DNA from: Candidatus Saccharimonadales bacterium
Lineage (GTDB): Bacteria > Patescibacteriota > Saccharimonadia > Saccharimonadales > DASZAF01
NCBI GenBank assembly: GCA_035480055.1
Contig: DATIIB010000007.1
Location: forward strand, 4,360 to 68,359
DNA length: 64,000 nt
Reading direction: 5' to 3'
Both the position numbers and the translations under genes were made by a program. Numbering within the stretch: position 1 is the first letter of the stretch; every line of letters starts with the position of its first letter. Below are positions 4,514-20,324 of this stretch, piece after piece. The notes beneath the pieces are model-generated. The model saw nothing but the letters and a program-made list of their open reading frames with translations. It searched no databases and was not told the origin of the DNA.

Positions 4514-5803
4514 CTACTGGCTCACCTTGAACCACTGCGAGTTGTCCACAAAGGCGTGAATGCCAGAACCTGCCGAGACCGCAATCTGCAGCGAAGCTTT
4601 TTTGACATTAATCGAGCTGGGCTTGTAGGCAAGGTTGATGTCCTCCACGAACGTCGACCGTTCACCGCTTTTATACTGGCCAGAGATCCAGTTGCCGCTT
4701 TGATCGTATTCATCGATGTAAAAGGTGACTTCACCGCTGGTTAATTTGTCCACATTCAGGAAGTTTTTGAGCATATAGCTGGCGGTCGAATCAACGTCCA
4801 ACTTTGGTCCAAAAAGATGGACGCTTTTTCCAGTTGCTGCTGTTAGTTCGATCGCATTGGTTGGGCTGGGGTAGCTGCCATTGTTGGCGGTATTTTTGAT
4901 CACTTGTTGCGGGGCATCGGTCGTCCAGCCGTCGGCGATACCATTATCAAAACTATTATTCGGCATCATATTTACCGTGCTAGCCACCGTGCCGGCCGAC
5001 ACATTAACCACTGGCAAATTTTGCGCTTGCACGTAGGCGGCGATTTGCTTGAGGTTAGCGGTGCTGTACTCATAATCGTCTGGGTTAGCACTCGGGTTGG
5101 CCTTGATGTCGTGAAGAACCAAGATGAGCCAAGCATTATTTTGTTTGGCTTGGTCGATATACGTTTTGACTTGAGCGACCGTCACGCCAGCTTGCACCTG
5201 TTTGACATACAGCAAATAGTCATTGTACGGCCAGAGATTGTTACTCTCGGTGTCCCAAAACGGGCGATGCGAGGCATAGTATTTGGAAATACCAGCCAAC
5301 ACTGCATTGTTGTAGTCGCCATAGGGCGTGGCAAACGAGGTTGGATTGAAGCCATGCTGCTGCAACGTCGCTTTGCTATTGACCAGTTCATTCGTAAGAC
5401 GTGTGGCATTGACCTGCGTGAGCTCAGGGTGAGTGACGCTATGTGAGCCAATCTCCCAGTGGTAGGTGTTTTGCAGTTGCGTGACCTGTGGCCAGGTCAT
5501 ATACTTGGCACCTGGGTTGGCAGGACACGTACCTGTAGTCCCCACGCAGCCGCTAATCACATAATCTGTGCCGGTAAAGCCATATTGCGCAAGCGCAGGC
5601 GCGGCGTTTTGTACCGCAGTGGTTAACCCGTCATCAAAGGTAAAGGAGACTTTGGCCGTAGGTGTCGGATTCATAACTGCGGCCTTTGCTGGTGTTGCAC
5701 CTCCAATAGCGAGACCGCCAGCAGCCACTACCATACAGAGGCACGCTGCGATTCTCAGGCGTATCGCCTGCATAGTGAGATTAGTAGTAAAAGGTAAGGC
5801 CAT
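4514..5803 (-). CDS. Secreted/anchored polysaccharide deacetylase (CE4/NodB) with a C-terminal carbohydrate-binding-like domain
   Basis: 429 aa from ATG 5803, with AAGGGGA upstream. N-terminal hydrophobic anchor IAACLCMVVAAGGLAIGG; NodB motifs VSFTFDDG and GSHSVTHPEL; the C-terminal ~140 aa are beta-rich. Confidence 0.85.
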   Translation of the reverse strand: MALPFTTNLTMQAIRLRIAACLCMVVAAGGLAIGGATPAKAAVMNPTPTAKVSFTFDDGLTTAVQNAAPALAQYGFTGTDYVISGCVGTTGTCPANPGAKYMTWPQVTQLQNTYHWEIGSHSVTHPELTQVNATRLTNELVNSKATLQQHGFNPTSFATPYGDYNNAVLAGISKYYASHRPFWDTESNNLWPYNDYLLYVKQVQAGVTVAQVKTYIDQAKQNNAWLILVLHDIKANPSANPDDYEYSTANLKQIAAYVQAQNLPVVNVSAGTVASTVNMMPNNSFDNGIADGWTTDAPQQVIKNTANNGSYPSPTNAIELTAATGKSVHLFGPKLDVDSTASYMLKNFLNVDKLTSGEVTFYIDEYDQSGNWISGQYKSGERSTFVEDINLAYKPSSINVKKASLQIAVSAGSGIHAFVDNSQWFKVSQ

Positions 5804-12844: not shown

Positions 12845-13720
12845 TTACTGTGTCACAATCTGCTTCCACGGCCCGTCAGGGACTTTGGACGCAGGCACTA
12901 ATGACCAATCGGTCGTGTCCACATCTTGGAGATGCAAATAATCATGGACTGCCGGCGATACATCGAGGCCAGCCTTGGCGCCCCACGTATTACGAAAGGC
13001 GCTGTTGCCAAATACATAGTCCACATCGTCTTCGCCAAGCGGCCCCGCGTCTTCCCACTGCGCATAGACGACCTGGCCATTGTGACGGATCATCACCCAG
13101 CTGTTTTTGCACCACGAGCGGTTCGCATCGGTCTGCACGGCAGTAGGGAGACATTTTTGCGCCGACGCTTTGCGTTTGCCCTTGGCATCGAAATCATTAT
13201 ATGGCAAAGCGATGTAGAAAGGATTTTCCTTTGGCTTAAAAGCTGCTGGCCACCAACCATTTCGGGACTGAGGGGTGTCTGCGCCACCAAAGTGCTGTTG
13301 CCATTGGTCGTCCCAAGCGCTCGCGACATTGGTAATGTAATCATTTTCGCTATCGGCCGGTTCGCCAACCCAAAAAAAGGTTGTAGTGATATGCGTATGC
13401 GTCCAGTCGCCAGAGGATGAGTTGCTGCTGGAAGAACCTGCCAAGCCGGTTGGAGTTGATTTGGAATTTGTAAGCGGCGCCATACTCACAAGTGTTGTCA
13501 GTGGGACAGACAGTGGATGTAACAAGCCATACAGAGCTGAGTGCCCCGACCTTGCAGGCGCTAAAGCCTGCGCGCTTAAAGCGACAACGCTCACAACAAT
13601 AATCGCCGCCGCTAGTCCGCTACTCAAAAGACGCCGCCCGCGACTGTAAAAGCGTCGCGGGAGAGGCGTCTTGAGCGAAGGATGCAGGTACTTGGCTTTA
13701 GAGCTGCGGTTGAATCTCAT
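12845..13720 (-). CDS. Secreted protein, possibly with an RlpA/expansin-like double-psi beta-barrel domain
   Basis: The start is uncertain. The track uses GTG 13756; ATG 13720 still overlaps the upstream gene by 23 nt. A signal-like LLSSGLAAAIIVVSVVALSAQALA is followed by TTFFWVGEPA, NPFYIALPYND, and YAQWEDAGPLGEDD..GLDVSPA, which resembles DPBB proteins. Confidence 0.45.
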   Translation of the reverse strand: MRFNRSSKAKYLHPSLKTPLPRRFYSRGRRLLSSGLAAAIIVVSVVALSAQALAPARSGHSALYGLLHPLSVPLTTLVSMAPLTNSKSTPTGLAGSSSSNSSSGDWTHTHITTTFFWVGEPADSENDYITNVASAWDDQWQQHFGGADTPQSRNGWWPAAFKPKENPFYIALPYNDFDAKGKRKASAQKCLPTAVQTDANRSWCKNSWVMIRHNGQVVYAQWEDAGPLGEDDVDYVFGNSAFRNTWGAKAGLDVSPAVHDYLHLQDVDTTDWSLVPASKVPDGPWKQIVTQ

Positions 13721-16001
13721 TAAGCGCCTGGTCAACAGTTTCAACTGTGACACCACTCTGCTTAATGTTGTTCAACTCTGCATCAAGGTTGGCAGGAGTC
13801 ACTGCATAGGTTGGGTCAGCAGCTGCAGGGTCAACTTCGTGGTAAACCAGCACCAACCAGGTCTTGTTGGCGATCGCCTGATTAACCCATGCCTGAACCA
13901 TGGCAGGAGTGGTAGTGTTCTCGACATTCTGTACTTTAATGTTGTAGATGTCGAAGCTGTCTTTACTGTTAAAGCCAACGTCGGTTGAACGGTGCGAGCG
14001 GTAGAACTTCTTGATCTCGGTAATGACACTACTGTTGTAGGCGCCGTATGGAGTGGCGAAGTTGTTGGCCACACCAGGGGTTCCAAACCAGCTGCGGAGT
14101 TGGTTTTGCGAACCGCTCAGCTCAGCGTCGATCTGGGCAACGGTCAAAGTGGTGAGGTCAGGGTGAGTCATAGTGTGTGCTGCGACTTCGTTACCCGCGC
14201 TCTTCCAGGCAGTCATTTCAGCAAGAGTCATGTAGTCTGGGTAGCCATCGATTGTTGGCTGAGTCAGCATGTAACCGGTTGCAACCATGTTGTACTTCTT
14301 GAGTAATGGCAAGCCATTGGTCTCAATAGTCTTCCAGGCATCGTCGAAGGTCAGGCTGACCATGGCACGATTGAACTGCGCAGGAGCATATGGCGCAAAG
14401 CTGAAGTCATCGGTTTGGACAAAGCCAACTTTGGTAAGCGCTTGGAAGATAGTGATACTCTTGGCACCAGCTGGAGCGGTAAACTGTGCCTTGACCTGTG
14501 CCCATGCACTTGGGCTCGCAGAAGCGGTTGCCAGGTAGAAATACTGGACGGTGCCGTCGGTCATGGTGACCTGGGCATCAACTTCGCTATCAACGCTGGA
14601 TTCATACCAGTTGCTGTATTGGTACTGTGCCCCTGGAGTAATGGCAATGTCGTCGAAGTACCATTTGGCGTCACCGTTGGTGTATGCACTCATGGTGGTC
14701 TTGACACTGTGGCTGCCGGTGTGGCCAGTGTTCTCAACAGTTGTGGTGTGAGTGTTAGTACCCCAGCCGTCTGCGCGCCAGTTGGTTGGGAGGCCGCTGG
14801 TCAGTGTTTCAACTGAAGGGTTCAAAACCAGGTTGGTTGCTGGTGGCGTTACTGGAGGAGTCACAACTACGTTATTAACGGTGACAGCTACTTCAGTTGA
14901 AGTGGTACTGAGGTTGGCTTGGTTGGTGGCAACTGCAGTCAGTTTGTGAGCGCCGTTGGTTACTTTGGTGGTGTCCCAGTTATAAGTGTAAGGTGCGGTC
15001 GTGAGGGCGCTGCCGAGATTTACGCCGTCCAGCTTGAACTGTACCGAAGTAATACCTTGCGCGTCGCTCGCAGCAGCGGTAATGGCTTGAGTGCCAGAGA
15101 CAGTTGCGTTATTTGCAGGAGCGCTGAGCTGTACGGTTGGAGGAGTTGGATTGTTCACCGTCACGGTAGCGGCAGTAGAAGTAGTCGTGAGGTTTGCAGC
15201 GTTGGTTGCTACAGCGGTCAAGGTGTGCGTTCCATTGGTGGCCGTTTTGGTGTCCCAAGTGGTGCTGTACGGAGCGGTCGTATCAGCTGCACCGAGGTTG
15301 GTACCATCGAGCTTAAACTGTACCGAAGTGACACCAACTGCATCACTGGCAGTTGCGGTGATTGTTTGCGTACCGCTGACGGTGGCACCAGTAGTTGGAG
15401 CGGTCAGTTGTACGGTTGGCGCAGTTGCGACAGGAGGAACTGGAGTGACAGGAGGAGTCGTAGGAGTACCGGTGCCAAAGCTGTAATCGTCAACAGTCAA
15501 AGAGCCGTTCGCTTGGATGTAGTGGAAAAAAGTCACGCTCTTGGCGCCGGTAGGAGCCTTGAAGCTAAAGCTCGCCTGTTTCCAATCGGTGCTGGCGGCA
15601 AAATCGCCCTGCCATTTGTACTGAGTCTTGCCAGCGGTAGTGGTGATCACTGCATCGATGCTGTTCTTGATACCACTTTTGTACCAGTCGCTAAAGGTGT
15701 AGGTTGTGCCAGGAGTGACAGTGACTGGAGAAAAGTACCACTTTGCGTCTCCGCTGGTGTAGTTGCTCATCTTCACGGTTGCACTGTGGCTGCCGGTGTG
15801 GCCAGTGTTCTCGTACGTGTAGGCAGTAGTGTTAGTACCCCAGTTATCTTTAAGCCAGCCAGTTGGGCTACCGCTCGTTGCGTCTTCAAAAGAAGCGTTG
15901 GCAACCAGGTTAGCGTCAGCGGCAAAAGCTGTGGCGATTGGTGATTGAACCGCTGCGACAACAACCAAGATTGCGCCGATTAATGATAGTACTCGCTTCA
16001 T
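13698..16001 (-). CDS. Large secreted modular polysaccharide deacetylase: CBM-like, two Ig-like domains, CBM-like, then CE4
   Basis: 767 aa with SD AGGAG. Signal peptide ...AVQSPIATAFA. Two paralogous ~150-aa domains share (N)TGHTGSHS...GDAKWYF. There is a tandem Ig-like repeat. C-terminal NodB motifs are VSLTFDDAW and AAHTMTHPDL. Confidence 0.88.
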   Translation of the reverse strand: MKRVLSLIGAILVVVAAVQSPIATAFAADANLVANASFEDATSGSPTGWLKDNWGTNTTAYTYENTGHTGSHSATVKMSNYTSGDAKWYFSPVTVTPGTTYTFSDWYKSGIKNSIDAVITTTAGKTQYKWQGDFAASTDWKQASFSFKAPTGAKSVTFFHYIQANGSLTVDDYSFGTGTPTTPPVTPVPPVATAPTVQLTAPTTGATVSGTQTITATASDAVGVTSVQFKLDGTNLGAADTTAPYSTTWDTKTATNGTHTLTAVATNAANLTTTSTAATVTVNNPTPPTVQLSAPANNATVSGTQAITAAASDAQGITSVQFKLDGVNLGSALTTAPYTYNWDTTKVTNGAHKLTAVATNQANLSTTSTEVAVTVNNVVVTPPVTPPATNLVLNPSVETLTSGLPTNWRADGWGTNTHTTTVENTGHTGSHSVKTTMSAYTNGDAKWYFDDIAITPGAQYQYSNWYESSVDSEVDAQVTMTDGTVQYFYLATASASPSAWAQVKAQFTAPAGAKSITIFQALTKVGFVQTDDFSFAPYAPAQFNRAMVSLTFDDAWKTIETNGLPLLKKYNMVATGYMLTQPTIDGYPDYMTLAEMTAWKSAGNEVAAHTMTHPDLTTLTVAQIDAELSGSQNQLRSWFGTPGVANNFATPYGAYNSSVITEIKKFYRSHRSTDVGFNSKDSFDIYNIKVQNVENTTTPAMVQAWVNQAIANKTWLVLVYHEVDPAAADPTYAVTPANLDAELNNIKQSGVTVETVDQALNEIQPQL
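14871..15422 (-). repeat. Tandem duplication of a ~92-aa Ig-like module inside the CE4 gene
   Basis: aa 194-284 (PTVQLTAPTTGATVSGTQTITATASDAVGVTSVQFKLDG...TVNN) versus aa 288-377 (PTVQLSAPANNATVSGTQAITAAASDAQGITSVQFKLDG...TVNN). A related module occurs in the protein at 21179-22762. Confidence 0.85.
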
Positions 16002-16143: not shown

Positions 16144-16171
16144 TTGACTTTTGTACTATAAAGTATATAAT
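16144..16171 (+). promoter_or_regulatory. Near-consensus sigma70 promoter (TTGACT-16-TATAAT) for the micro-ORF/CE4/GT2 operon
   Basis: TTGACT at 16144-16149 and TATAAT at 16166-16171. A second TTGACT lies at ~16113. Confidence 0.6.
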
Positions 16172-16209
16172 GCGGTTAAGTATCAAAGACCTAACGGGAG
16201 TAAGGCAAC

Positions 16210-16386
16210 ATGTACGAACAAACCGGCGGAATGGGCGGCTTTATCGCTCCAGCAACAACAGCAGTAATCACTCTACCTTTGACAGGTGGTAACCTTCTTG
16301 TGCAAATCGCTATTGCGATCGCAGCTGGTCTGACAGTATGGGGCATCCTCAACGCTCGTCAGCGCAAACTGCAAAAAGCACAGTAG
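16210..16386 (+). CDS. 58-aa micro-protein consisting essentially of an LPXTG-type cell-wall sorting signal
   Basis: Below the track's size cutoff. ATG 16210, GGGAG upstream, TAG at 16384-16386. Translation: MYEQTGGMGGFIAPATTAVITLPLTGGNLLVQIAIAIAAGLTVWGILNARQRKLQKAQ. This reads as LPLTG, then a 21-residue hydrophobic stretch, then an R/K tail. No N-terminal signal peptide. Confidence 0.55.
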   Translation: MYEQTGGMGGFIAPATTAVITLPLTGGNLLVQIAIAIAAGLTVWGILNARQRKLQKAQ

Positions 16387-16409: not shown

Positions 16410-17372
16410 ATGAAACTGAGTAAAAAAGTGGGCACGGTGGGAACACACTCAGCTCGTGCAAAGCGCACTAAGCCACGCCGTTTTCGACGTGGTTTAGTGA
16501 CAACCTTAGCGGTCCTGGTGAGCTTATTGCCAGTTGGCTCAATGGGCTATCTTGGCTGGGCCGTATATCGGAATGTCTTTCACGATAGCCGTCCGACCGC
16601 TTCTCTTTCGTATGTAAATCGAAGTATAACTGGCCTGACGCCGTTTTCCACTCCCATGGTCAGCGTCACCTTCGACGATGGCTGGGAATCTGCGTACAAA
16701 AATGCAGCCCCAGTGCTGAGTCAGTACAACATCCCGTCGACTTTTTATATCATTACCGATACTTTTAACGACCCGCAGTACTTATCAACTGATCAGATCA
16801 AATCGCTCCTGGCTAGTGGCCACCAGATTGAATCACACACCGTCACGCACCCTAACCTCACCCAGGTCAACGACACGCAGCTAGGTAAAGAACTGAGCAA
16901 TTCCAAGAATACGCTGCAAAAATTAGTTAATGGCCCGGTCACCGACTTCTCTTCTCCGCTTGACGCCTATAACGATCATGTTATTGCCGCGATTAAGGCA
17001 CAGGGGTATCGCTCGCACCGTACGACGGACGCAGATCTTACCCGCGACCCTTACAATCTGAACCTGGCCAGCACCTTTAATCCGTACCGCATTCAAGCCT
17101 ACACAGTGCGCAACACCACAACCACTCAGCAGCTCCAAGATTATCTGGCATACGCCCGCGAAAATAAAGCTTGGGTCGTTCTGGTGTACCACCAGGTAGA
17201 ATCCAGCAAGGTGGAAGTACCCGAGAAAGACCGCTACGCCGTATCGCTTAATGCCTTTAAAGAGCAGATGAAGTTGGTGAATGAGAGCAACATGCGAGTT
17301 GTCACCATGGAGCAAGCGCTTGACGCTATTGCCAAGCAACCTGCGGTACCATCTCAAGGAGACACCAAATGA
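16410..17372 (+). CDS. Membrane-anchored polysaccharide deacetylase (CE4)
   Basis: 320 aa with SD AAGGA. TM LVTTLAVLVSLLPVGSMGYLGWAVY; NodB motifs VSVTFDDGW and ESHTVTHPNL. Confidence 0.88.
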   Translation: MKLSKKVGTVGTHSARAKRTKPRRFRRGLVTTLAVLVSLLPVGSMGYLGWAVYRNVFHDSRPTASLSYVNRSITGLTPFSTPMVSVTFDDGWESAYKNAAPVLSQYNIPSTFYIITDTFNDPQYLSTDQIKSLLASGHQIESHTVTHPNLTQVNDTQLGKELSNSKNTLQKLVNGPVTDFSSPLDAYNDHVIAAIKAQGYRSHRTTDADLTRDPYNLNLASTFNPYRIQAYTVRNTTTTQQLQDYLAYARENKAWVVLVYHQVESSKVEVPEKDRYAVSLNAFKEQMKLVNESNMRVVTMEQALDAIAKQPAVPSQGDTK

Positions 17373-18436
17373 GTAAGCAAAAACCAATGATCGCCTTAAT
17401 TATCTCTGGCTACAACGAAGAAAAAGTGATTGCCCGGACGTTGGAATCAGCCATCACTGCTGGCATGCGCCGCGAAGATATCTATGTGGTGAGCGACAAC
17501 TCCAGCGACCAAACCATGGCTGTCGCGCGCACCTTACTGCCTGACGTCAATGTCATGGAAGTGGAACGGAGCGGTAAAGGCTTGGCTCTGAGTAAAGCTG
17601 CTGCTGCATTTGGTTTGACCGAACGCTATCGTTGGATTCACGTTGCTGACGCCGATGGCGGTTTTGCGCCGAACTACTTCCGCGTACTGCGCCGTGAACT
17701 ACGCGTTAAGAACGCAGCAGCCACCGGCTACATCACCAGCACCAAAAACTCCATGATTGGGCAATACCGAGTGATGGAATACACCGTGGGTATGGAAGTG
17801 GTCCGCCGCTTTCAATCATTTGGCCAAGTGGTCAGCGTGATTCCTGGACCAAGCTCTTGCTTCCGCGCAGATGTGTTTAAAAAGCTCGACTTTGCCAGCG
17901 GCGCTTTAGCCGAAGACTTCTGCGTCACCTTGCAGATTCACCGCCAAAAACTTGGTCCCATTCAATATATCGAAGACGCGGTGGTCTTTACGCAGGACCC
18001 GCAAACCTTCCGCGACTTTACCCGCCAGATTCGTCGGTGGAACATCGGCATCTTGCAAGGTATCAAAATGTACAAGATCGGTTTGCGCCCACAACGCATC
18101 GACGCGTACCTGACGTACCAAGTTATGCAGAACCTGATGATGTTCTTTACCTACGCCATCTGGCTACCCTACCTGGCTTTTAGCCAGCACAACTTTGCCT
18201 TATTCCCGCTGGCCTTTCTGACTGACTTCAGCCTAACGCTGCTTCTTACCACGCTCACAGCCAAACGCGCCAAACGATGGGATATCCTGGAGTCGTTGCC
18301 CAATATTTACGGGCTTCGTTGGGTTGCCCTATGGGTCTTTATGTCAGCCTTCGTAAAGGTGATGATCTTCAATCAGCACCGCGTTGGCCGCAGTAATGGC
18401 ATCTGGCAACCGGTCGCTCGTAAAGCGGTTAGCTAG
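17369..18436 (+). CDS. Family-2 glycosyltransferase (processive synthase-like) with C-terminal TM helices
   Basis: 355 aa, with an ATGA overlap with the CE4 gene. Motifs: IALIISGYNEE, VVSDNSSD, HVADADGG, and Q-x-x-R-W-like RQIRRWNIG. Confidence 0.82.
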   Translation: MSKQKPMIALIISGYNEEKVIARTLESAITAGMRREDIYVVSDNSSDQTMAVARTLLPDVNVMEVERSGKGLALSKAAAAFGLTERYRWIHVADADGGFAPNYFRVLRRELRVKNAAATGYITSTKNSMIGQYRVMEYTVGMEVVRRFQSFGQVVSVIPGPSSCFRADVFKKLDFASGALAEDFCVTLQIHRQKLGPIQYIEDAVVFTQDPQTFRDFTRQIRRWNIGILQGIKMYKIGLRPQRIDAYLTYQVMQNLMMFFTYAIWLPYLAFSQHNFALFPLAFLTDFSLTLLLTTLTAKRAKRWDILESLPNIYGLRWVALWVFMSAFVKVMIFNQHRVGRSNGIWQPVARKAVS

Positions 18437-19499
18437 TTTTCGGCGTTTGGCGTCTTATAGACTTGAGGGCTTTCGGTGTCGCTACACCTACATGGTTTTT
18501 ATTCCCTGAAGATTGCAGCAGATGCACGGGCACAGCAGGCCCTCGGCTTTTCTCTAGCGCAACCCGTACCAATGCCCGCATGGCACGGACTCGTTGGAAT
18601 TTCCAACGGTGTTCAGCTTGCACACGAAGTTCGGCAACAGTTTGGCCGACATCGAGGCGCCGAGAGTTCGGCTCTTCCGATATCAATTCATCCATACCGC
18701 TAAATTCGGTCAGCAAGCGCAACACTTTTTTGGTCAGTTTGTTCATGCTGCGCGCCCGAATCCACCCATTCCCATCTTCGAGAGTGACCGCAATCGCTTC
18801 TTGCAAACGGTGAGTGAGCAACGCTTCTGGCTGCGGCGAGGGCTTTGGAGAGCGTGTCTGAAGCTCTGGTTGCTCGTCACTCGGCGGAATTGGCCACTGT
18901 GGCGGAGCTCCTCTTGGAGGCGGAGGTGTCGAAGCAACTGGCGCGCTTAAAACTGCAGGTGCATTCCGGTGCGCACCGGGAATTGCTACCGTGGGCGCAG
19001 TTCTGCGATACCCATACACCCGCTCTGGGAGTGCTGGCGGTTGAGTCTTGGCGTACACACCATCACGCACCTCGATGGTAACCCCTCTTCCTTTGGTTGT
19101 ATCTTCAATGGAGCGAATTTCACGCCCATTACCAAACAAGGCAGCCATGGCCAAACGCTCCCGAACACCTGGCGACATCTGCCGGAAATATTCGGCATCT
19201 CTGGCCAGCTCCGGATGTGCTTGCTGCACTGTCTCAGGCAGGCGGACATCGGCAATTAACCGGGCAGTCAGCGAGCCTATATTCTCGCTATGTCTTCCAA
19301 TCGGTGCGTCCACAATCTTATATTGAGGATTCGCTCTATCTGCTTGGCTCAATTCGCGAGCCCCAGGATCTCTGGGAATCTGCGTCTCGGGCTGCATGGC
19401 CTGAAAGGCGGCTTGTACTAATAACTGTTGTGTTCGTCGTACGGTCTGCGGCGTCACAGGGACGTCAAATTCAGACCGCCACGGTGCGGTATCAATCAT
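18429..19499 (-). CDS. Hypothetical protein with a central Pro-rich linker
   Basis: 356 aa with SD AAGGAG. It lies downstream of the sortase on the same strand. No signal peptide and no recognisable domain. Confidence 0.55.
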   Translation of the reverse strand: MIDTAPWRSEFDVPVTPQTVRRTQQLLVQAAFQAMQPETQIPRDPGARELSQADRANPQYKIVDAPIGRHSENIGSLTARLIADVRLPETVQQAHPELARDAEYFRQMSPGVRERLAMAALFGNGREIRSIEDTTKGRGVTIEVRDGVYAKTQPPALPERVYGYRRTAPTVAIPGAHRNAPAVLSAPVASTPPPPRGAPPQWPIPPSDEQPELQTRSPKPSPQPEALLTHRLQEAIAVTLEDGNGWIRARSMNKLTKKVLRLLTEFSGMDELISEEPNSRRLDVGQTVAELRVQAEHRWKFQRVRAMRALVRVALEKSRGPAVPVHLLQSSGNKNHVGVATPKALKSIRRQTPKTS

Positions 19500-19589: not shown

Positions 19590-20324
19590 TTAGAACAAAT
19601 GCTTCACAGCTTGGAAGGCGTTTTGGCTTCCGCTCGGCAGCGTCATGGCTTTGGGCGTATGCATTTCGGGTGCAACCTGGTTAGCATCCACGGCAGGAGA
19701 AATCTGTTTGGCCTGAATCACCAAACGATTGAGTGAAGTTCCCACAGGAGTACACGTGATAAGCGTCAATGTGGGAGTTGCAGTTTGAGCCAGCACCGAA
19801 GTATCGTTCGGGCGAATCACTTTGCGTGTGGTGACTTCATAAATATATTGTTTGCCTTGGTAGTTGGCGTATAGCTTATCCCCGATTTGCACTTGGTCGA
19901 GCATCATAAACACAAATTTGTACGAGCCAGGCGCCCACGGCGTGTTGCTGGAGTGGCCCAGGATGACCGTATTTCCGCCATTACCTGGTGCAGGCGTTCC
20001 GGCAAAAAGGAGGACGCCGCTTTCGAGTGCTTTTTGCACATCTTTTTCGAGCGGACTGGGCATGTTAGTAACAATCGGCGCGGTCACGCTAATGCGCGGA
20101 ATGATCAGCTCGGGCTGGGTGTATTGCGGTGAAGTTTGCGAGCCTGTGGCAGAAGTCTGTGGCAGCGTTGGAGGTGCGGCCGCCATAACCGGCTTGTGAA
20201 AGGCCAGCATGCTGCGGCCCACAATTAACTGGGCGTTAAAAATGCCAAGCAAGAGCACGGTAGTGGTAATGCCGATAAGGGGTGCACGCCAGGCGCGCCA
20301 TGTGGTAGATCGGGGACGATGCAC
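19590..20324 (-). CDS. Sortase family transpeptidase
   Basis: 244 aa with a GTG start and AAGAGG upstream. N-terminal TM; catalytic His region NTVILGHSSN; active-site TLxTC motif LTLITCTPVG; and a downstream R (SLNRLVI). Confidence 0.85.
   Translation of the reverse strand: MHRPRSTTWRAWRAPLIGITTTVLLLGIFNAQLIVGRSMLAFHKPVMAAAPPTLPQTSATGSQTSPQYTQPELIIPRISVTAPIVTNMPSPLEKDVQKALESGVLLFAGTPAPGNGGNTVILGHSSNTPWAPGSYKFVFMMLDQVQIGDKLYANYQGKQYIYEVTTRKVIRPNDTSVLAQTATPTLTLITCTPVGTSLNRLVIQAKQISPAVDANQVAPEMHTPKAMTLPSGSQNAFQAVKHLF

What the first reader, a model, noticed from the sequence alone, without database searches (positions are those of the whole stretch)
16210..16386. Unannotated 58-aa ORF that is essentially a bare LPXTG sorting signal, behind a near-consensus promoter and 3 kb from a sortase gene
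MYEQTGGMGGFIAPATTAVITLPLTGGNLLVQIAIAIAAGLTVWGILNARQRKLQKAQ contains LPLTG, a 21-residue hydrophobic segment and an Arg/Lys tail. That is the tripartite cell-wall sorting signal. It has only ~20 residues of cargo and no Sec signal peptide.

A short N-terminal tail can be translocated without a signal peptide (N-out, C-in). The protein could therefore be a minimal sortase substrate, with a ~25-aa peptide ending up linked to the wall or to a lipid or glycan acceptor. Alternatively it could be a small regulatory subunit of the downstream CE4/GT2 glycan machinery whose LPLTG is coincidental.

It is the first ORF of the operon driven by TTGACT-16-TATAAT. It is the only LPXTG-like motif I found in the window. 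Its size of under 60 aa means routine annotation would miss it.
Basis: partly seen in the sequence, partly recalled or inferred. Interest (0 to 1): 0.75.

Follow-up and report, generated by a model that had tools for sequence, protein, structure and literature searches.

The report
Stand-alone LPXTG micro-protein with dedicated sortase
A 58-residue protein that is almost entirely a sortase sorting signal turns out to belong to a large, conserved family in Saccharibacteria, always encoded at the head of a polysaccharide-synthase operon next to its own sortase, which points to an undescribed use of sortase in these ultrasmall bacteria.

Summary
The ORF at 16210-16386 is real and the motif is not chance. 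It is the first gene of a three-gene operon (micro-ORF, CE4 deacetylase, processive GT2 synthase) in a Saccharimonadales (CPR) genome.

At least 279 protein clusters of 49-60 aa form the family. L, P, T and G of LPxTG are 96-100% conserved and x varies. The motif sits at a fixed distance from a conserved TM helix (A..G[LM]xxWG), which is followed by a K/R tail.

dN/dS is 0.04-0.25. Shine-Dalgarno sites and strong promoters are conserved.

Six of six micro-ORF-anchored look-ups and 32 of 34 assessable GT2-anchored loci show micro-ORF, (CE4), GT2, then a convergent sortase with an intact His/Cys/Arg triad. In about 450 kb of related DNA the micro-ORFs are the only sorting-signal carriers.

In one duplicated module the sortase has lost its His and Cys, and its micro-ORF has lost L and T of the motif.

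Best reading (about 0.55): a signal-peptide-less, N-out/C-in micro-substrate of a dedicated sortase. Cleavage, the acceptor and the biological role are untested.

Main rival: an uncleaved membrane subunit of the synthase/sortase complex.

The ORF is not unannotated. NCBI calls it a hypothetical protein, and IMG labels some relatives LPXTG proteins. I found no paper describing the family.

The parts
16144..16171 (+). Sigma-70-type promoter, TTGACT-16-TATAAT
   Evidence: 11 of 12 matches. Of 34 homologous loci, 30 have a promoter scoring at least 10/12 within 200 nt upstream of the micro-ORF, and six are perfect consensus (no shuffle control was run for the loci).
16196..16205 (+). Shine-Dalgarno region (GGGAG, then TAAGG), 9 or 4 nt before the ATG
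   Evidence: Sequence. GGAG, GAGG or AGGAG lies 5-10 nt upstream of the start in nearly all 34 homologous loci.
16210..16386 (+). Micro-ORF, 58 aa: N-tail (residues 1-21), LPLTG (22-26), TM helix (27-48), K/R tail (49-58)
16273..16287 (+). Codons for LPLTG. Cleavage between T25 and G26 is inferred.
   Evidence: Motif conservation. Only the LPNTG relatives reach the TIGR01167 cut-off. Cleavage was not tested.
16288..16353 (+). Transmembrane helix with the family-specific conserved residues A34, G40, W44 and G45
   Evidence: these residues are invariant in 50 sequences; helix with pLDDT above 90; a fixed 13 residues lie between the motif G and G[LM]xxWG in 124 of 130 members.
16410..17372 (+). 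Membrane-anchored CE4 polysaccharide deacetylase (N-terminal TM, TFDDG and HTVTH motifs)
   Evidence: PF01522, E = 2.6e-27. Sequence. It is syntenic in most loci but absent between the micro-ORF and GT2 in L018, L022, L024 and L032.
17369..18436 (+). Processive membrane GT2 synthase (DAD, ED and QxxRW motifs; three C-terminal TM helices)
   Evidence: The AlphaFold2 model has pLDDT 81. Its best structural matches are hyaluronan synthase (TM-score on query 0.76-0.78), chitin synthases and cellulose synthase.
18412..18439 (+). Terminator-like hairpin plus T-run at the end of GT2
   Evidence: This is a consensus match only.
19590..20324 (-). Sortase with an N-terminal TM anchor and the catalytic residues H124, C191 (TLITC) and R200
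   Evidence: It is nearest class C/D but below every class cut-off. The triad is conserved in 32 of 33 aligned sortases. The gene is convergent and lies directly after GT2 in most loci.
12845..13756 (-). p303: a TM-anchored protein of unknown family, a frequent companion of the cluster
   Evidence: 43-61% identical homologues in many loci. It also lies between CE4 and GT2 in Arthrobacter loci.
13698..16001 (-). Secreted CBM4_9 / Big_7 / CE4 protein of 767 aa, divergent from the micro-ORF and a frequent companion

Best explanation
The micro-ORF encodes a genuine, highly expressed 58-aa membrane protein of a Saccharibacteria-wide family. It consists of a short uncharged Ala/Thr/Gly/Val-rich N-tail followed directly by a complete LPxTG sorting signal.

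The proposed pathway has four steps, all inferred:
1. The protein inserts N-out/C-in without a signal peptide. Its short tail, near-absence of N-terminal charge and K/R-rich C-tail resemble YidC-type substrates such as Pf3 coat protein.
2. This places LPLTG at the outer face of the membrane.
3. The adjacent membrane-anchored sortase cleaves between T25 and G26.
4. The sortase transfers the roughly 25-residue N-terminal peptide to an amine acceptor in the envelope. The acceptor could be peptidoglycan precursor, as in the classical reaction, or the de-N-acetylated GlcNAc-type polymer made by the co-encoded GT2 synthase and CE4 deacetylase.

What is shown: the gene is real and under purifying selection; the motif is conserved in the pattern a sortase requires; the gene is syntenic with GT2 and a catalytically intact sortase.

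What is inferred: insertion topology, cleavage, the acceptor and the biological role.
For: **The protein is real**
- dN/dS is 0.04-0.25 in the closest pairs. Nucleotide identity by codon position is 0.59, 0.68 and 0.38.
- SD, ATG and the 'MY' start are conserved.
- Strong promoters are conserved.
- At least 279 clusters of 49-60 aa belong to the family.

**The motif behaves as a sortase site**
- L, P, T and G are 96-100% conserved while x takes N, D, S, L, V, K, Q, E or T.
- Spacing to the TM helix is fixed, and a K/R tail is always present.
- Four of 8 relatives reach the TIGR01167 LPXTG_anchor cut-off.

**The sortase is dedicated**
- A sortase lies within 6 kb in 32 of 34 assessable GT2-anchored loci, nearly always convergent and directly after GT2. 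The same order holds in 6 of 6 micro-ORF-anchored look-ups.
- H, C and R are conserved in 32 of 33 aligned sortases.
- The micro-ORFs are the only sorting-signal carriers in the 64-kb window and in about 35 Saccharibacteria loci.
- More distant GT2 loci have neither a micro-ORF nor a sortase.

**Co-degeneration**
- In the tandem second module L009, the sortase has H to Y and C to G, and its micro-ORF reads APGVG instead of LPNTG.

**Topology**
- The N-tail has a median of 21 aa and at most 1 K/R. The C-tail has a mean of 1.9 K/R.
- AlphaFold2 gives a single helix at 27-57 and a disordered tail, not a hairpin.
Against: - There is no signal peptide, so export of the N-tail is assumed, not shown.
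- The TM helix carries invariant A34, G40, W44 and G45. Ordinary sorting signals are not this conserved, which suggests a specific helix-helix partner.
- The L009 module keeps intact ORFs for a dead sortase and an uncleavable micro-protein. This hints at a cleavage-independent role, or at decay. It is a single case, and two metagenome scans found no further examples.
- The 'cargo' has no domain, so the benefit of anchoring it is unknown.
- The window's own protein (LPLTG) does not reach any LPXTG HMM threshold.
- The sortase fits no defined class, so its motif preference is unknown.
- Synteny counts are not phylogenetically independent.
- There are no expression or proteomic data.
Confidence: 0.55

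Rival explanations
1. Uncleaved membrane subunit. The micro-protein is a small integral partner of the GT2 synthase, CE4 and sortase assembly. It would be functionally comparable to IcaD/PgaD for PNAG synthases, or to SafA for actinobacterial sortase. Its LPxTG would serve as a docking or pseudo-substrate element that tethers sortase to the synthase, rather than being turned over.
For: - A34, G40, W44 and G45 in the TM helix are invariant.
- The tightest linkage is to GT2. In L018, L022, L024 and L032 the micro-ORF directly precedes GT2 with no CE4 between them.
- The GT2 has only three C-terminal TM helices and lacks the N-terminal TM helices of the hyaluronan synthase it most resembles. A helix supplied in trans is therefore plausible (inference).
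- The L009 module retains a motif-less micro-protein and a dead sortase as intact ORFs.
- There is a precedent for a 52-aa TM partner of sortase, SafA (PMC9282373).
Against: - A pure subunit role does not explain why exactly L, P, T and G are fixed while x is free.
- It does not explain why the sortase catalytic triad is kept in 32 of 33 aligned sortases.
- It does not explain why motif and catalytic residues are lost together.
- There is no sequence similarity to IcaD, PgaD or SafA families at E up to 10.
- SafA has the opposite topology and different motifs.
Confidence: 0.27
2. Sortase-released peptide. The sortase acts mainly as a protease, with water as the nucleophile, and liberates the roughly 25-residue N-terminal peptide as a soluble extracellular signal or effector.
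For: It rests on the same motif, sortase and topology evidence as the best explanation. The strong promoter is consistent with a stoichiometric product.
Against: - The N-tail is low-complexity (75% A/T/G/V) and variable in length, 14-27 aa. That is unlike a specific signalling peptide.
- From general knowledge, sortase hydrolysis is normally a slow side reaction.
- The conserved linkage to a glycan synthase is not explained.
Confidence: 0.07
3. Chance ORF or chance motif: a non-functional small ORF, or a coding ORF whose LPLTG is coincidental.
For: The window's own protein fails the LPXTG HMM thresholds, and its first homology search returned only itself.
Against: - Family-wide conservation, purifying selection and conserved translation signals.
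- No sorting-signal-like tail in 200 shuffles of the window.
Confidence: 0.01

Closest known systems
Classical LPXTG cell-wall sorting signal of Gram-positive surface proteins (TIGR01167 / PF00746), processed by sortase
   Same: It has the same tripartite layout: LPxTG, a roughly 20-residue hydrophobic helix and a K/R tail. The stretch before the motif is low-complexity and rich in Gly, Thr and Ala, like a wall-spanning region. A sortase with an intact His/Cys/Arg triad is encoded nearby. Several relatives pass the TIGR01167 cut-off.
   Different: There is no Sec signal peptide and no passenger domain. The whole protein is 49-60 aa. The TM helix has invariant family-specific residues. The gene heads a processive GT2 synthase operon. 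The window's own protein does not reach the HMM thresholds.
NCBIfam NF058583 'LAXTG_small_WW', LAXTG motif-containing small protein (54-position model)
   Same: The concept is the same: a roughly 54-aa protein defined by a sortase-type motif.
   Different: It is not homologous at family level. The best relative scores 12.8 bits against a cut-off of 65, and the window protein has no hit. The motif here is LPxTG, not LAxTG. I could not read anything about that family's context or function.
SafA, the 52-aa sortase-associated TM protein of Actinobacteria (PMC9282373)
   Same: It is a micro-protein with a single TM helix, genetically linked to a sortase. It shows that such small ORFs can be essential to sortase biology.
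   Different: SafA is N-in/C-out and has PGP and FPW motifs with no LPXTG. It lies immediately downstream of srtA and protects sortase from signal peptidase; it is a partner, not a substrate. There is no sequence similarity.
IcaD / PgaD small membrane subunits of PNAG synthases (icaADBC, pgaABCD)
   Same: The gene set is comparable: a small membrane protein, a GT2 processive synthase and a CE4 deacetylase in one operon. The GT2 gives weak PgaC/IcaA-type hits.
   Different: From general knowledge, IcaD and PgaD have two TM helices, no LPXTG and no associated sortase. No similarity was detected. The gene order also differs.
PEP-CTERM / exosortase systems linked to exopolysaccharide loci
   Same: A C-terminal sorting signal (motif, TM helix, basic tail) and its processing enzyme are embedded in a glycosyltransferase and deacetylase locus. 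The GT2 and CE4 give weak hits to XrtG/XrtP-associated GT and XrtA-system deacetylase models.
   Different: The enzyme is different (sortase, not exosortase) and so is the motif. The resemblance is by analogy only.
Pf3 coat protein (44 aa; N-out/C-in insertion without a signal peptide, YidC-dependent)
   Same: Size and layout match: a short, weakly charged N-tail, one TM helix and a basic C-tail (using the Pf3 sequence recalled from memory).
   Different: It is unrelated in sequence and function, and is used here only as a precedent for the insertion step.

Membership tests
LPXTG cell-wall sorting signal (TIGR01167 / PF00746) | LPXTG pentapeptide near the C-terminus | tested here: met
   LPLTG is at residues 22-26. 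Across the family, L, P, T and G are 96-100% conserved.
LPXTG cell-wall sorting signal (TIGR01167 / PF00746) | Hydrophobic segment followed by a positively charged tail | tested here: met
   AlphaFold2 predicts a helix at 27-57. The mean Kyte-Doolittle hydrophobicity of the TM segment is 2.0, and every member has at least 1 K/R in the C-tail.
LPXTG cell-wall sorting signal (TIGR01167 / PF00746) | HMM score at or above the curated cut-off | tested here: inconclusive
   The window protein has no hit. Four of 8 relatives reach TIGR01167 (15.9-19.6 bits against a cut-off of 15.9). One of 7 relatives reaches PF00746.
LPXTG cell-wall sorting signal (TIGR01167 / PF00746) | Precursor carries an N-terminal Sec signal peptide and a passenger domain | tested here: not met
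   Only about 21 residues precede the motif. They are disordered and uncharged, and there is no cleavable signal or domain.
LPXTG cell-wall sorting signal (TIGR01167 / PF00746) | Cleavage between T and G, and transpeptidation by sortase | not testable with these tools
   The evidence is indirect only: an adjacent sortase with an intact triad, and co-loss of motif and catalytic residues in L009.
NF058583 LAXTG motif-containing small protein | HMM score of at least 65 bits | tested here: not met
   The best relative scores 12.8 bits. The window protein has no hit at E up to 1.
SafA (sortase-associated factor) | [quoted passage not shown] | tested here: not met
   The sequence has no PGP or FPW. 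The charge bias predicts the opposite topology. The gene lies upstream of CE4/GT2 and convergent to the sortase.
IcaD / PgaD synthase subunits | Sequence membership in the PgaD or IcaD families | tested here: not met
   No Pfam or NCBIfam hit to such families at E up to 10. There is one TM helix rather than two.
Sortase (PF04203 / TIGR01076), for the neighbouring enzyme | Sortase domain with catalytic His, Cys (TLxTC) and Arg | tested here: met
   PF04203 at E = 4.7e-26 and TIGR01076 at 64.8 bits against a cut-off of 39.35. H124, C191 and R200 are present.
Sortase classes A-F | Score above a class-specific NCBIfam cut-off | tested here: not met
   Class C scores 69.4 against 160, class D 66.2 against 165, class E 43.9 against 160 and class F 34 against 166. 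The nearest solved structures are class C sortases.
Processive membrane GT2 synthases (HAS, CHS, BcsA, NodC, PgaC type), for the co-operonic GT2 | D, DxD, ED and QxxRW motifs plus a membrane-embedded C-terminal helical domain | tested here: met
   D94-A95-D96, E182-D183 and Q220..R223-W224 are invariant. The AlphaFold2 model matches hyaluronan synthase at TM-score 0.76-0.78 on the query.

The most novel reading that the evidence does not exclude
The micro-protein is a peptide adaptor that lets a sortase couple a synthase-made polysaccharide covalently to the cell envelope. In one version, the sortase resolves its LPxT acyl-enzyme on free GlcN amines that the CE4 deacetylase creates on the GT2 polymer. 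In the other, the N-tail is first joined to the polymer and is then anchored to peptidoglycan through its LPxT end. Either route would be a sortase-dependent polysaccharide attachment or decoration pathway, so far seen only in Saccharibacteria.
Probability: 0.15. Interest if true: 0.9.

Novelty: new variant of a known kind. Interest (0 to 1): 0.7.

Why it matters
Sortase substrates are understood as Sec-exported proteins with a passenger domain. A conserved family that is only the sorting signal does not fit that picture. It has no signal peptide and no cargo, has its own sortase, and is invariably tied to a processive GlcNAc-type polysaccharide synthase.

This implies that sortase does something other than protein display in these organisms. 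The possibilities are peptide capping of the wall, peptide-glycan coupling, or control of a synthase.

Saccharibacteria live attached to host bacteria, and their envelope chemistry is almost unknown. The system is small and well defined: one 58-aa peptide, one sortase and one synthase. It could be reconstituted in vitro directly, and it might yield a new sortase specificity or acceptor for protein engineering.

Tried and rejected
- **Chance or non-coding ORF.** Rejected on conservation, dN/dS and shuffles.
- **Remnant of a larger LPXTG protein.** Rejected. All of the 120 best listed hits (of at least 279 family clusters) are 46-92 aa, mostly 49-60 aa, and in the loci examined each ORF has its own SD and ATG and usually a strong promoter.
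- **Helical-hairpin topology, with the N-tail as a weak first TM helix or uncleaved signal.** Considered because half the members carry one K/R at positions 3-5 and the tail is mildly hydrophobic (mean Kyte-Doolittle 0.93). AlphaFold2 gives no second helix. It is not excluded, and LPxTG would still face outward.
- **Lysine-mediated pilus-like polymerisation by a class-C-like sortase.** Rejected as a general mechanism. A Lys in the N-tail is absent in about half the members, including the window's protein, and no DP[WFY] lid motif is visible in the sortase sequence.
- **Micro-ORFs in more distant GT2 loci.** None found in actinobacterial, other CPR or archaeal loci L038-L052.
- **Further dead-sortase / degenerate-motif pairs.** Two metagenome scans found nothing.
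- **Literature.** Searches for Saccharibacteria or Patescibacteria with sortase or LPXTG, and for small or signal-less LPXTG proteins, found no description of this family.
- **Structure prediction.** It was repeated with database sequences.
- **** was an empty script.

Full report
**1. Observation**

The ORF at 16210-16386 (+) is present and translates to MYEQTGGMGGFIAPATTAVITLPLTGGNLLVQIAIAIAAGLTVWGILNARQRKLQKAQ. An in-frame TAA two codons upstream fixes the start, and a GGGAG/TAAGG purine tract precedes it.

The promoter TTGACT-16-TATAAT lies at 16144-16171, matching 11 of 12 positions. The next gene starts 23 nt after the stop. It is a membrane-anchored CE4 polysaccharide deacetylase (16410-17372).

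A GT2 (17369-18436) overlaps the CE4 gene by 4 nt and ends in a terminator-like hairpin. A sortase gene lies at 19590-20324 on the minus strand.

No ORF tail with LPxTG, a hydrophobic stretch and a K/R tail arose in 200 codon-block shuffles of the window. The only other LPxTG pentapeptides in the window are internal to two large ORFs and are not sorting signals.

The ORF is not unannotated. The identical protein is in NCBI as a hypothetical protein of a Candidatus Saccharimonadales MAG. This also identifies the source as a member of the Saccharibacteria (CPR/Patescibacteria).

**2. The ORF belongs to a large, conserved family**

A word-indexed search found only the protein itself, but three other approaches found many relatives:
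- An exhaustive HMMER search found 17 relatives.
- tblastn against 52 loci fetched with the neighbouring GT2 found a homologue in every assessable Saccharibacteria locus. It sits about 1.0-1.2 kb upstream of GT2, or about 0.2-0.5 kb upstream where no CE4 intervenes.
- A profile of 41 members then recovered at least 279 clusters at 90% identity. Nearly all are 49-60 aa, and IMG labels several 'LPXTG-motif cell wall-anchored protein'.

In 46 aligned members, L is 46/46, P 45/46, T 44/46 and G 46/46. The x position is N in 35 and otherwise S, L, V, K, D, Q or T. Of 131 small proteins examined from the database searches, 130 carry L-P-x-[T/A]-G, and the window's LPLTG is a rare variant, 2 of 130.

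This pattern, four fixed positions and one free, is what a sortase recognition site requires. It is not what a structural turn would be expected to show.

The motif lies a fixed 13 residues before a conserved G[LM]xxWG in 124 of 130 members. A34, G40, W44 and G45 (window numbering) are invariant in 50 sequences. The N-terminus is 'MY' in 38 of 46.

**3. It is a translated gene under selection**

- The closest pairs give dN/dS of 0.04-0.25.
- Mean pairwise nucleotide identity is 0.59, 0.68 and 0.38 at codon positions 1, 2 and 3.
- A GGAG- or GAGG-type Shine-Dalgarno sequence lies 5-10 nt before the start in nearly all loci.
- Of 34 loci, 30 have a sigma-70-like promoter scoring at least 10/12 within 200 nt upstream, and six are perfect consensus. 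No shuffle control was run for this count.

**4. Genomic context**

The order micro-ORF, CE4, GT2, then a convergent sortase recurs widely.
- A sortase lies within 6 kb in 32 of 34 assessable GT2-anchored loci, nearly always directly after GT2.
- The same order holds in six of six look-ups anchored on the micro-protein itself. This removes the ascertainment bias of GT2-based retrieval.
- In four loci (L018, L022, L024, L032) there is no CE4 between the micro-ORF and GT2. The invariant core is therefore micro-ORF, GT2 and sortase.
- In the window, an extra 356-aa ORF of no known family sits between GT2 and the sortase.
- Frequent companions are a TM-anchored protein of unknown family (p303, 12845-13756) and a large secreted CBM4_9/Big_7/CE4 protein (13698-16001).
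- More distant GT2 loci (Actinobacteria, other CPR, an archaeon) have neither a micro-ORF nor a sortase.

The GT2 has the D, DxD, ED and QxxRW motifs of processive synthases. Its AlphaFold2 model (pLDDT 81) best matches hyaluronan synthase (TM-score 0.76-0.78 on the query), followed by chitin and cellulose synthases.

Neighbouring GH18, GH46 and CBM5_12/LysM genes in some loci suggest a chitin/chitosan- or PNAG-like polymer. That is an inference.

**5. The sortase**

The sortase has an N-terminal TM anchor and the residues H124, C191 (in TLITC) and R200. The triad is conserved in 32 of 33 aligned sortases. It passes the general sortase models but no class-specific cut-off, and its nearest solved relatives are class C enzymes.

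Across the 64-kb window and about 35 Saccharibacteria loci (about 450 kb), the micro-ORFs are the only ORFs with a C-terminal sorting signal. The nearby sortase therefore has no other local candidate substrate.

**6. A natural experiment**

On one contig the module is tandemly duplicated (loci L009 and L008). The L008 copy is normal. In the L009 copy:
- The sortase reads GYSS and TGTP where all the others read GHSS and TCTP, so the catalytic His and Cys are lost.
- Its micro-ORF reads APGVG where the others read LPNTG, so L and T are lost.
- The micro-ORF still has its SD, a GTG-Tyr start and the GLGVWG helix motif.

Loss of the motif together with loss of the catalytic residues is the strongest in-silico link between the two. 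It is a single case, and two metagenome scans found no further examples. Both genes persist as intact ORFs, which also hints at a cleavage-independent role.

**7. Topology**

The stretch before the motif has a median of 21 residues. It is 75% A/T/G/V and never has more than one K/R (mean 0.5). The 5-6-residue C-tail always has at least one K/R (mean 1.9).

By the positive-inside rule this favours N-out/C-in. AlphaFold2 predicts one helix at 27-57 (pLDDT above 90) and a disordered stretch at 1-26, with no hairpin.

Short, weakly charged N-tails can cross the membrane without a signal peptide, as Pf3 coat protein does (established knowledge). This step is inferred here. In either topology LPxTG lies at the outer membrane face, where the sortase and CE4 catalytic domains are also predicted to be.

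**8. Interpretation**

Best supported (about 0.55): a dedicated sortase and micro-substrate pair. The protein is in effect a wall-spanning-type spacer plus a sorting signal. Sortase would cleave LPLT|G and transfer the roughly 25-residue peptide to an envelope amine. The acceptor and the purpose are unknown.

Because the pair is locked to a processive GlcNAc-type synthase, and usually to a deacetylase that generates free amines, coupling of peptide to polymer or of polymer to wall is an attractive possibility. It is unproven (about 0.15).

Main rival (about 0.27): an uncleaved small subunit of the synthase/sortase membrane complex. The unusually conserved TM helix, the GT2's small TM domain and the L009 module support it. 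It does not by itself explain the sortase-type conservation pattern.

The two are not mutually exclusive. A released signalling peptide (about 0.07) and chance (about 0.01) are less likely.

**9. Comparison with what is known**

The protein meets the motif, helix and charge criteria of the LPXTG sorting signal. It fails the criteria of a signal peptide and a passenger domain. The window's own sequence does not reach the HMM thresholds, although four of eight relatives do.

- NCBIfam has a model for a 'LAXTG motif-containing small protein' (NF058583). It is conceptually the closest, but this family is not a member: 12.8 bits against a cut-off of 65.
- SafA, a 52-aa sortase partner in Actinobacteria, differs in topology, motifs and gene position.
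- IcaD/PgaD and the PEP-CTERM/exosortase systems are analogies only.

No paper in the searchable library describes this family.

**10. Verdict**

I rate it a new variant of a known kind, with interest 0.7.

Noticed in passing
window 12845-13756 (-); also L042-L045 and L050 at about 5090-5775: p303 is a TM-anchored protein with a roughly 200-aa extracytoplasmic domain and no Pfam or NCBIfam family. It accompanies the cluster in many Saccharibacteria loci. It also sits between CE4 and GT2 in Arthrobacter loci (34-38% identity). It may be an uncharacterised partner of CE4/GT2 glycan systems across phyla.
   Followed up: partly
window 18429-19499 (-): A 356-aa Pro/Arg-rich ORF with no family hit lies between GT2 and the sortase in this genome only. 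In most other loci the sortase follows GT2 directly.
   Followed up: no
L009 4886-7828 and L008 (both on DATLCF010000001.1): The micro-ORF/CE4/GT2/sortase module is tandemly duplicated. The L009 copy has a catalytically dead sortase (H to Y, C to G) and a micro-ORF with APGVG in place of LPNTG, yet all ORFs are intact.
   Followed up: yes
L054-L064: Several micro-ORF loci also carry GH18, GH46 (chitosanase), a large GT2 with CBM5_12 or LysM, MurB, and a roughly 507-aa HTH-EPSP_synthase (MurA-like) fusion. These point to a chitin/chitosan-like or peptidoglycan-related glycan theme.
   Followed up: no
L015, L016, L020, L025, L026, L028, L030: about 100-110 nt upstream of the micro-ORF: In one subgroup the best promoter match lies about 100-110 nt before the ATG, against 38 nt in the window. 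This leaves room for an untranslated leader of unknown function.
   Followed up: no
L008/L009, L022, L028: MAGs labelled Nevskiaceae, Bacillota and Candidatus Limnocylindrales carry this Saccharibacteria-type cluster at 52-58% GT2 identity. Mis-binning or mislabelling of those records is likely.
   Followed up: no
L029 and L033: A divergent subclade has W-A instead of W-G and YFYRL tails. It has no sortase within 6 kb downstream of GT2, although LPNTG or LPTTG is retained.
   Followed up: no
L027 3812-4378 and 7068-7832: This locus has two sortase genes flanking the module. The extra one is short (188 aa) and has a GHRF / YTCTP active-site context.
   Followed up: no
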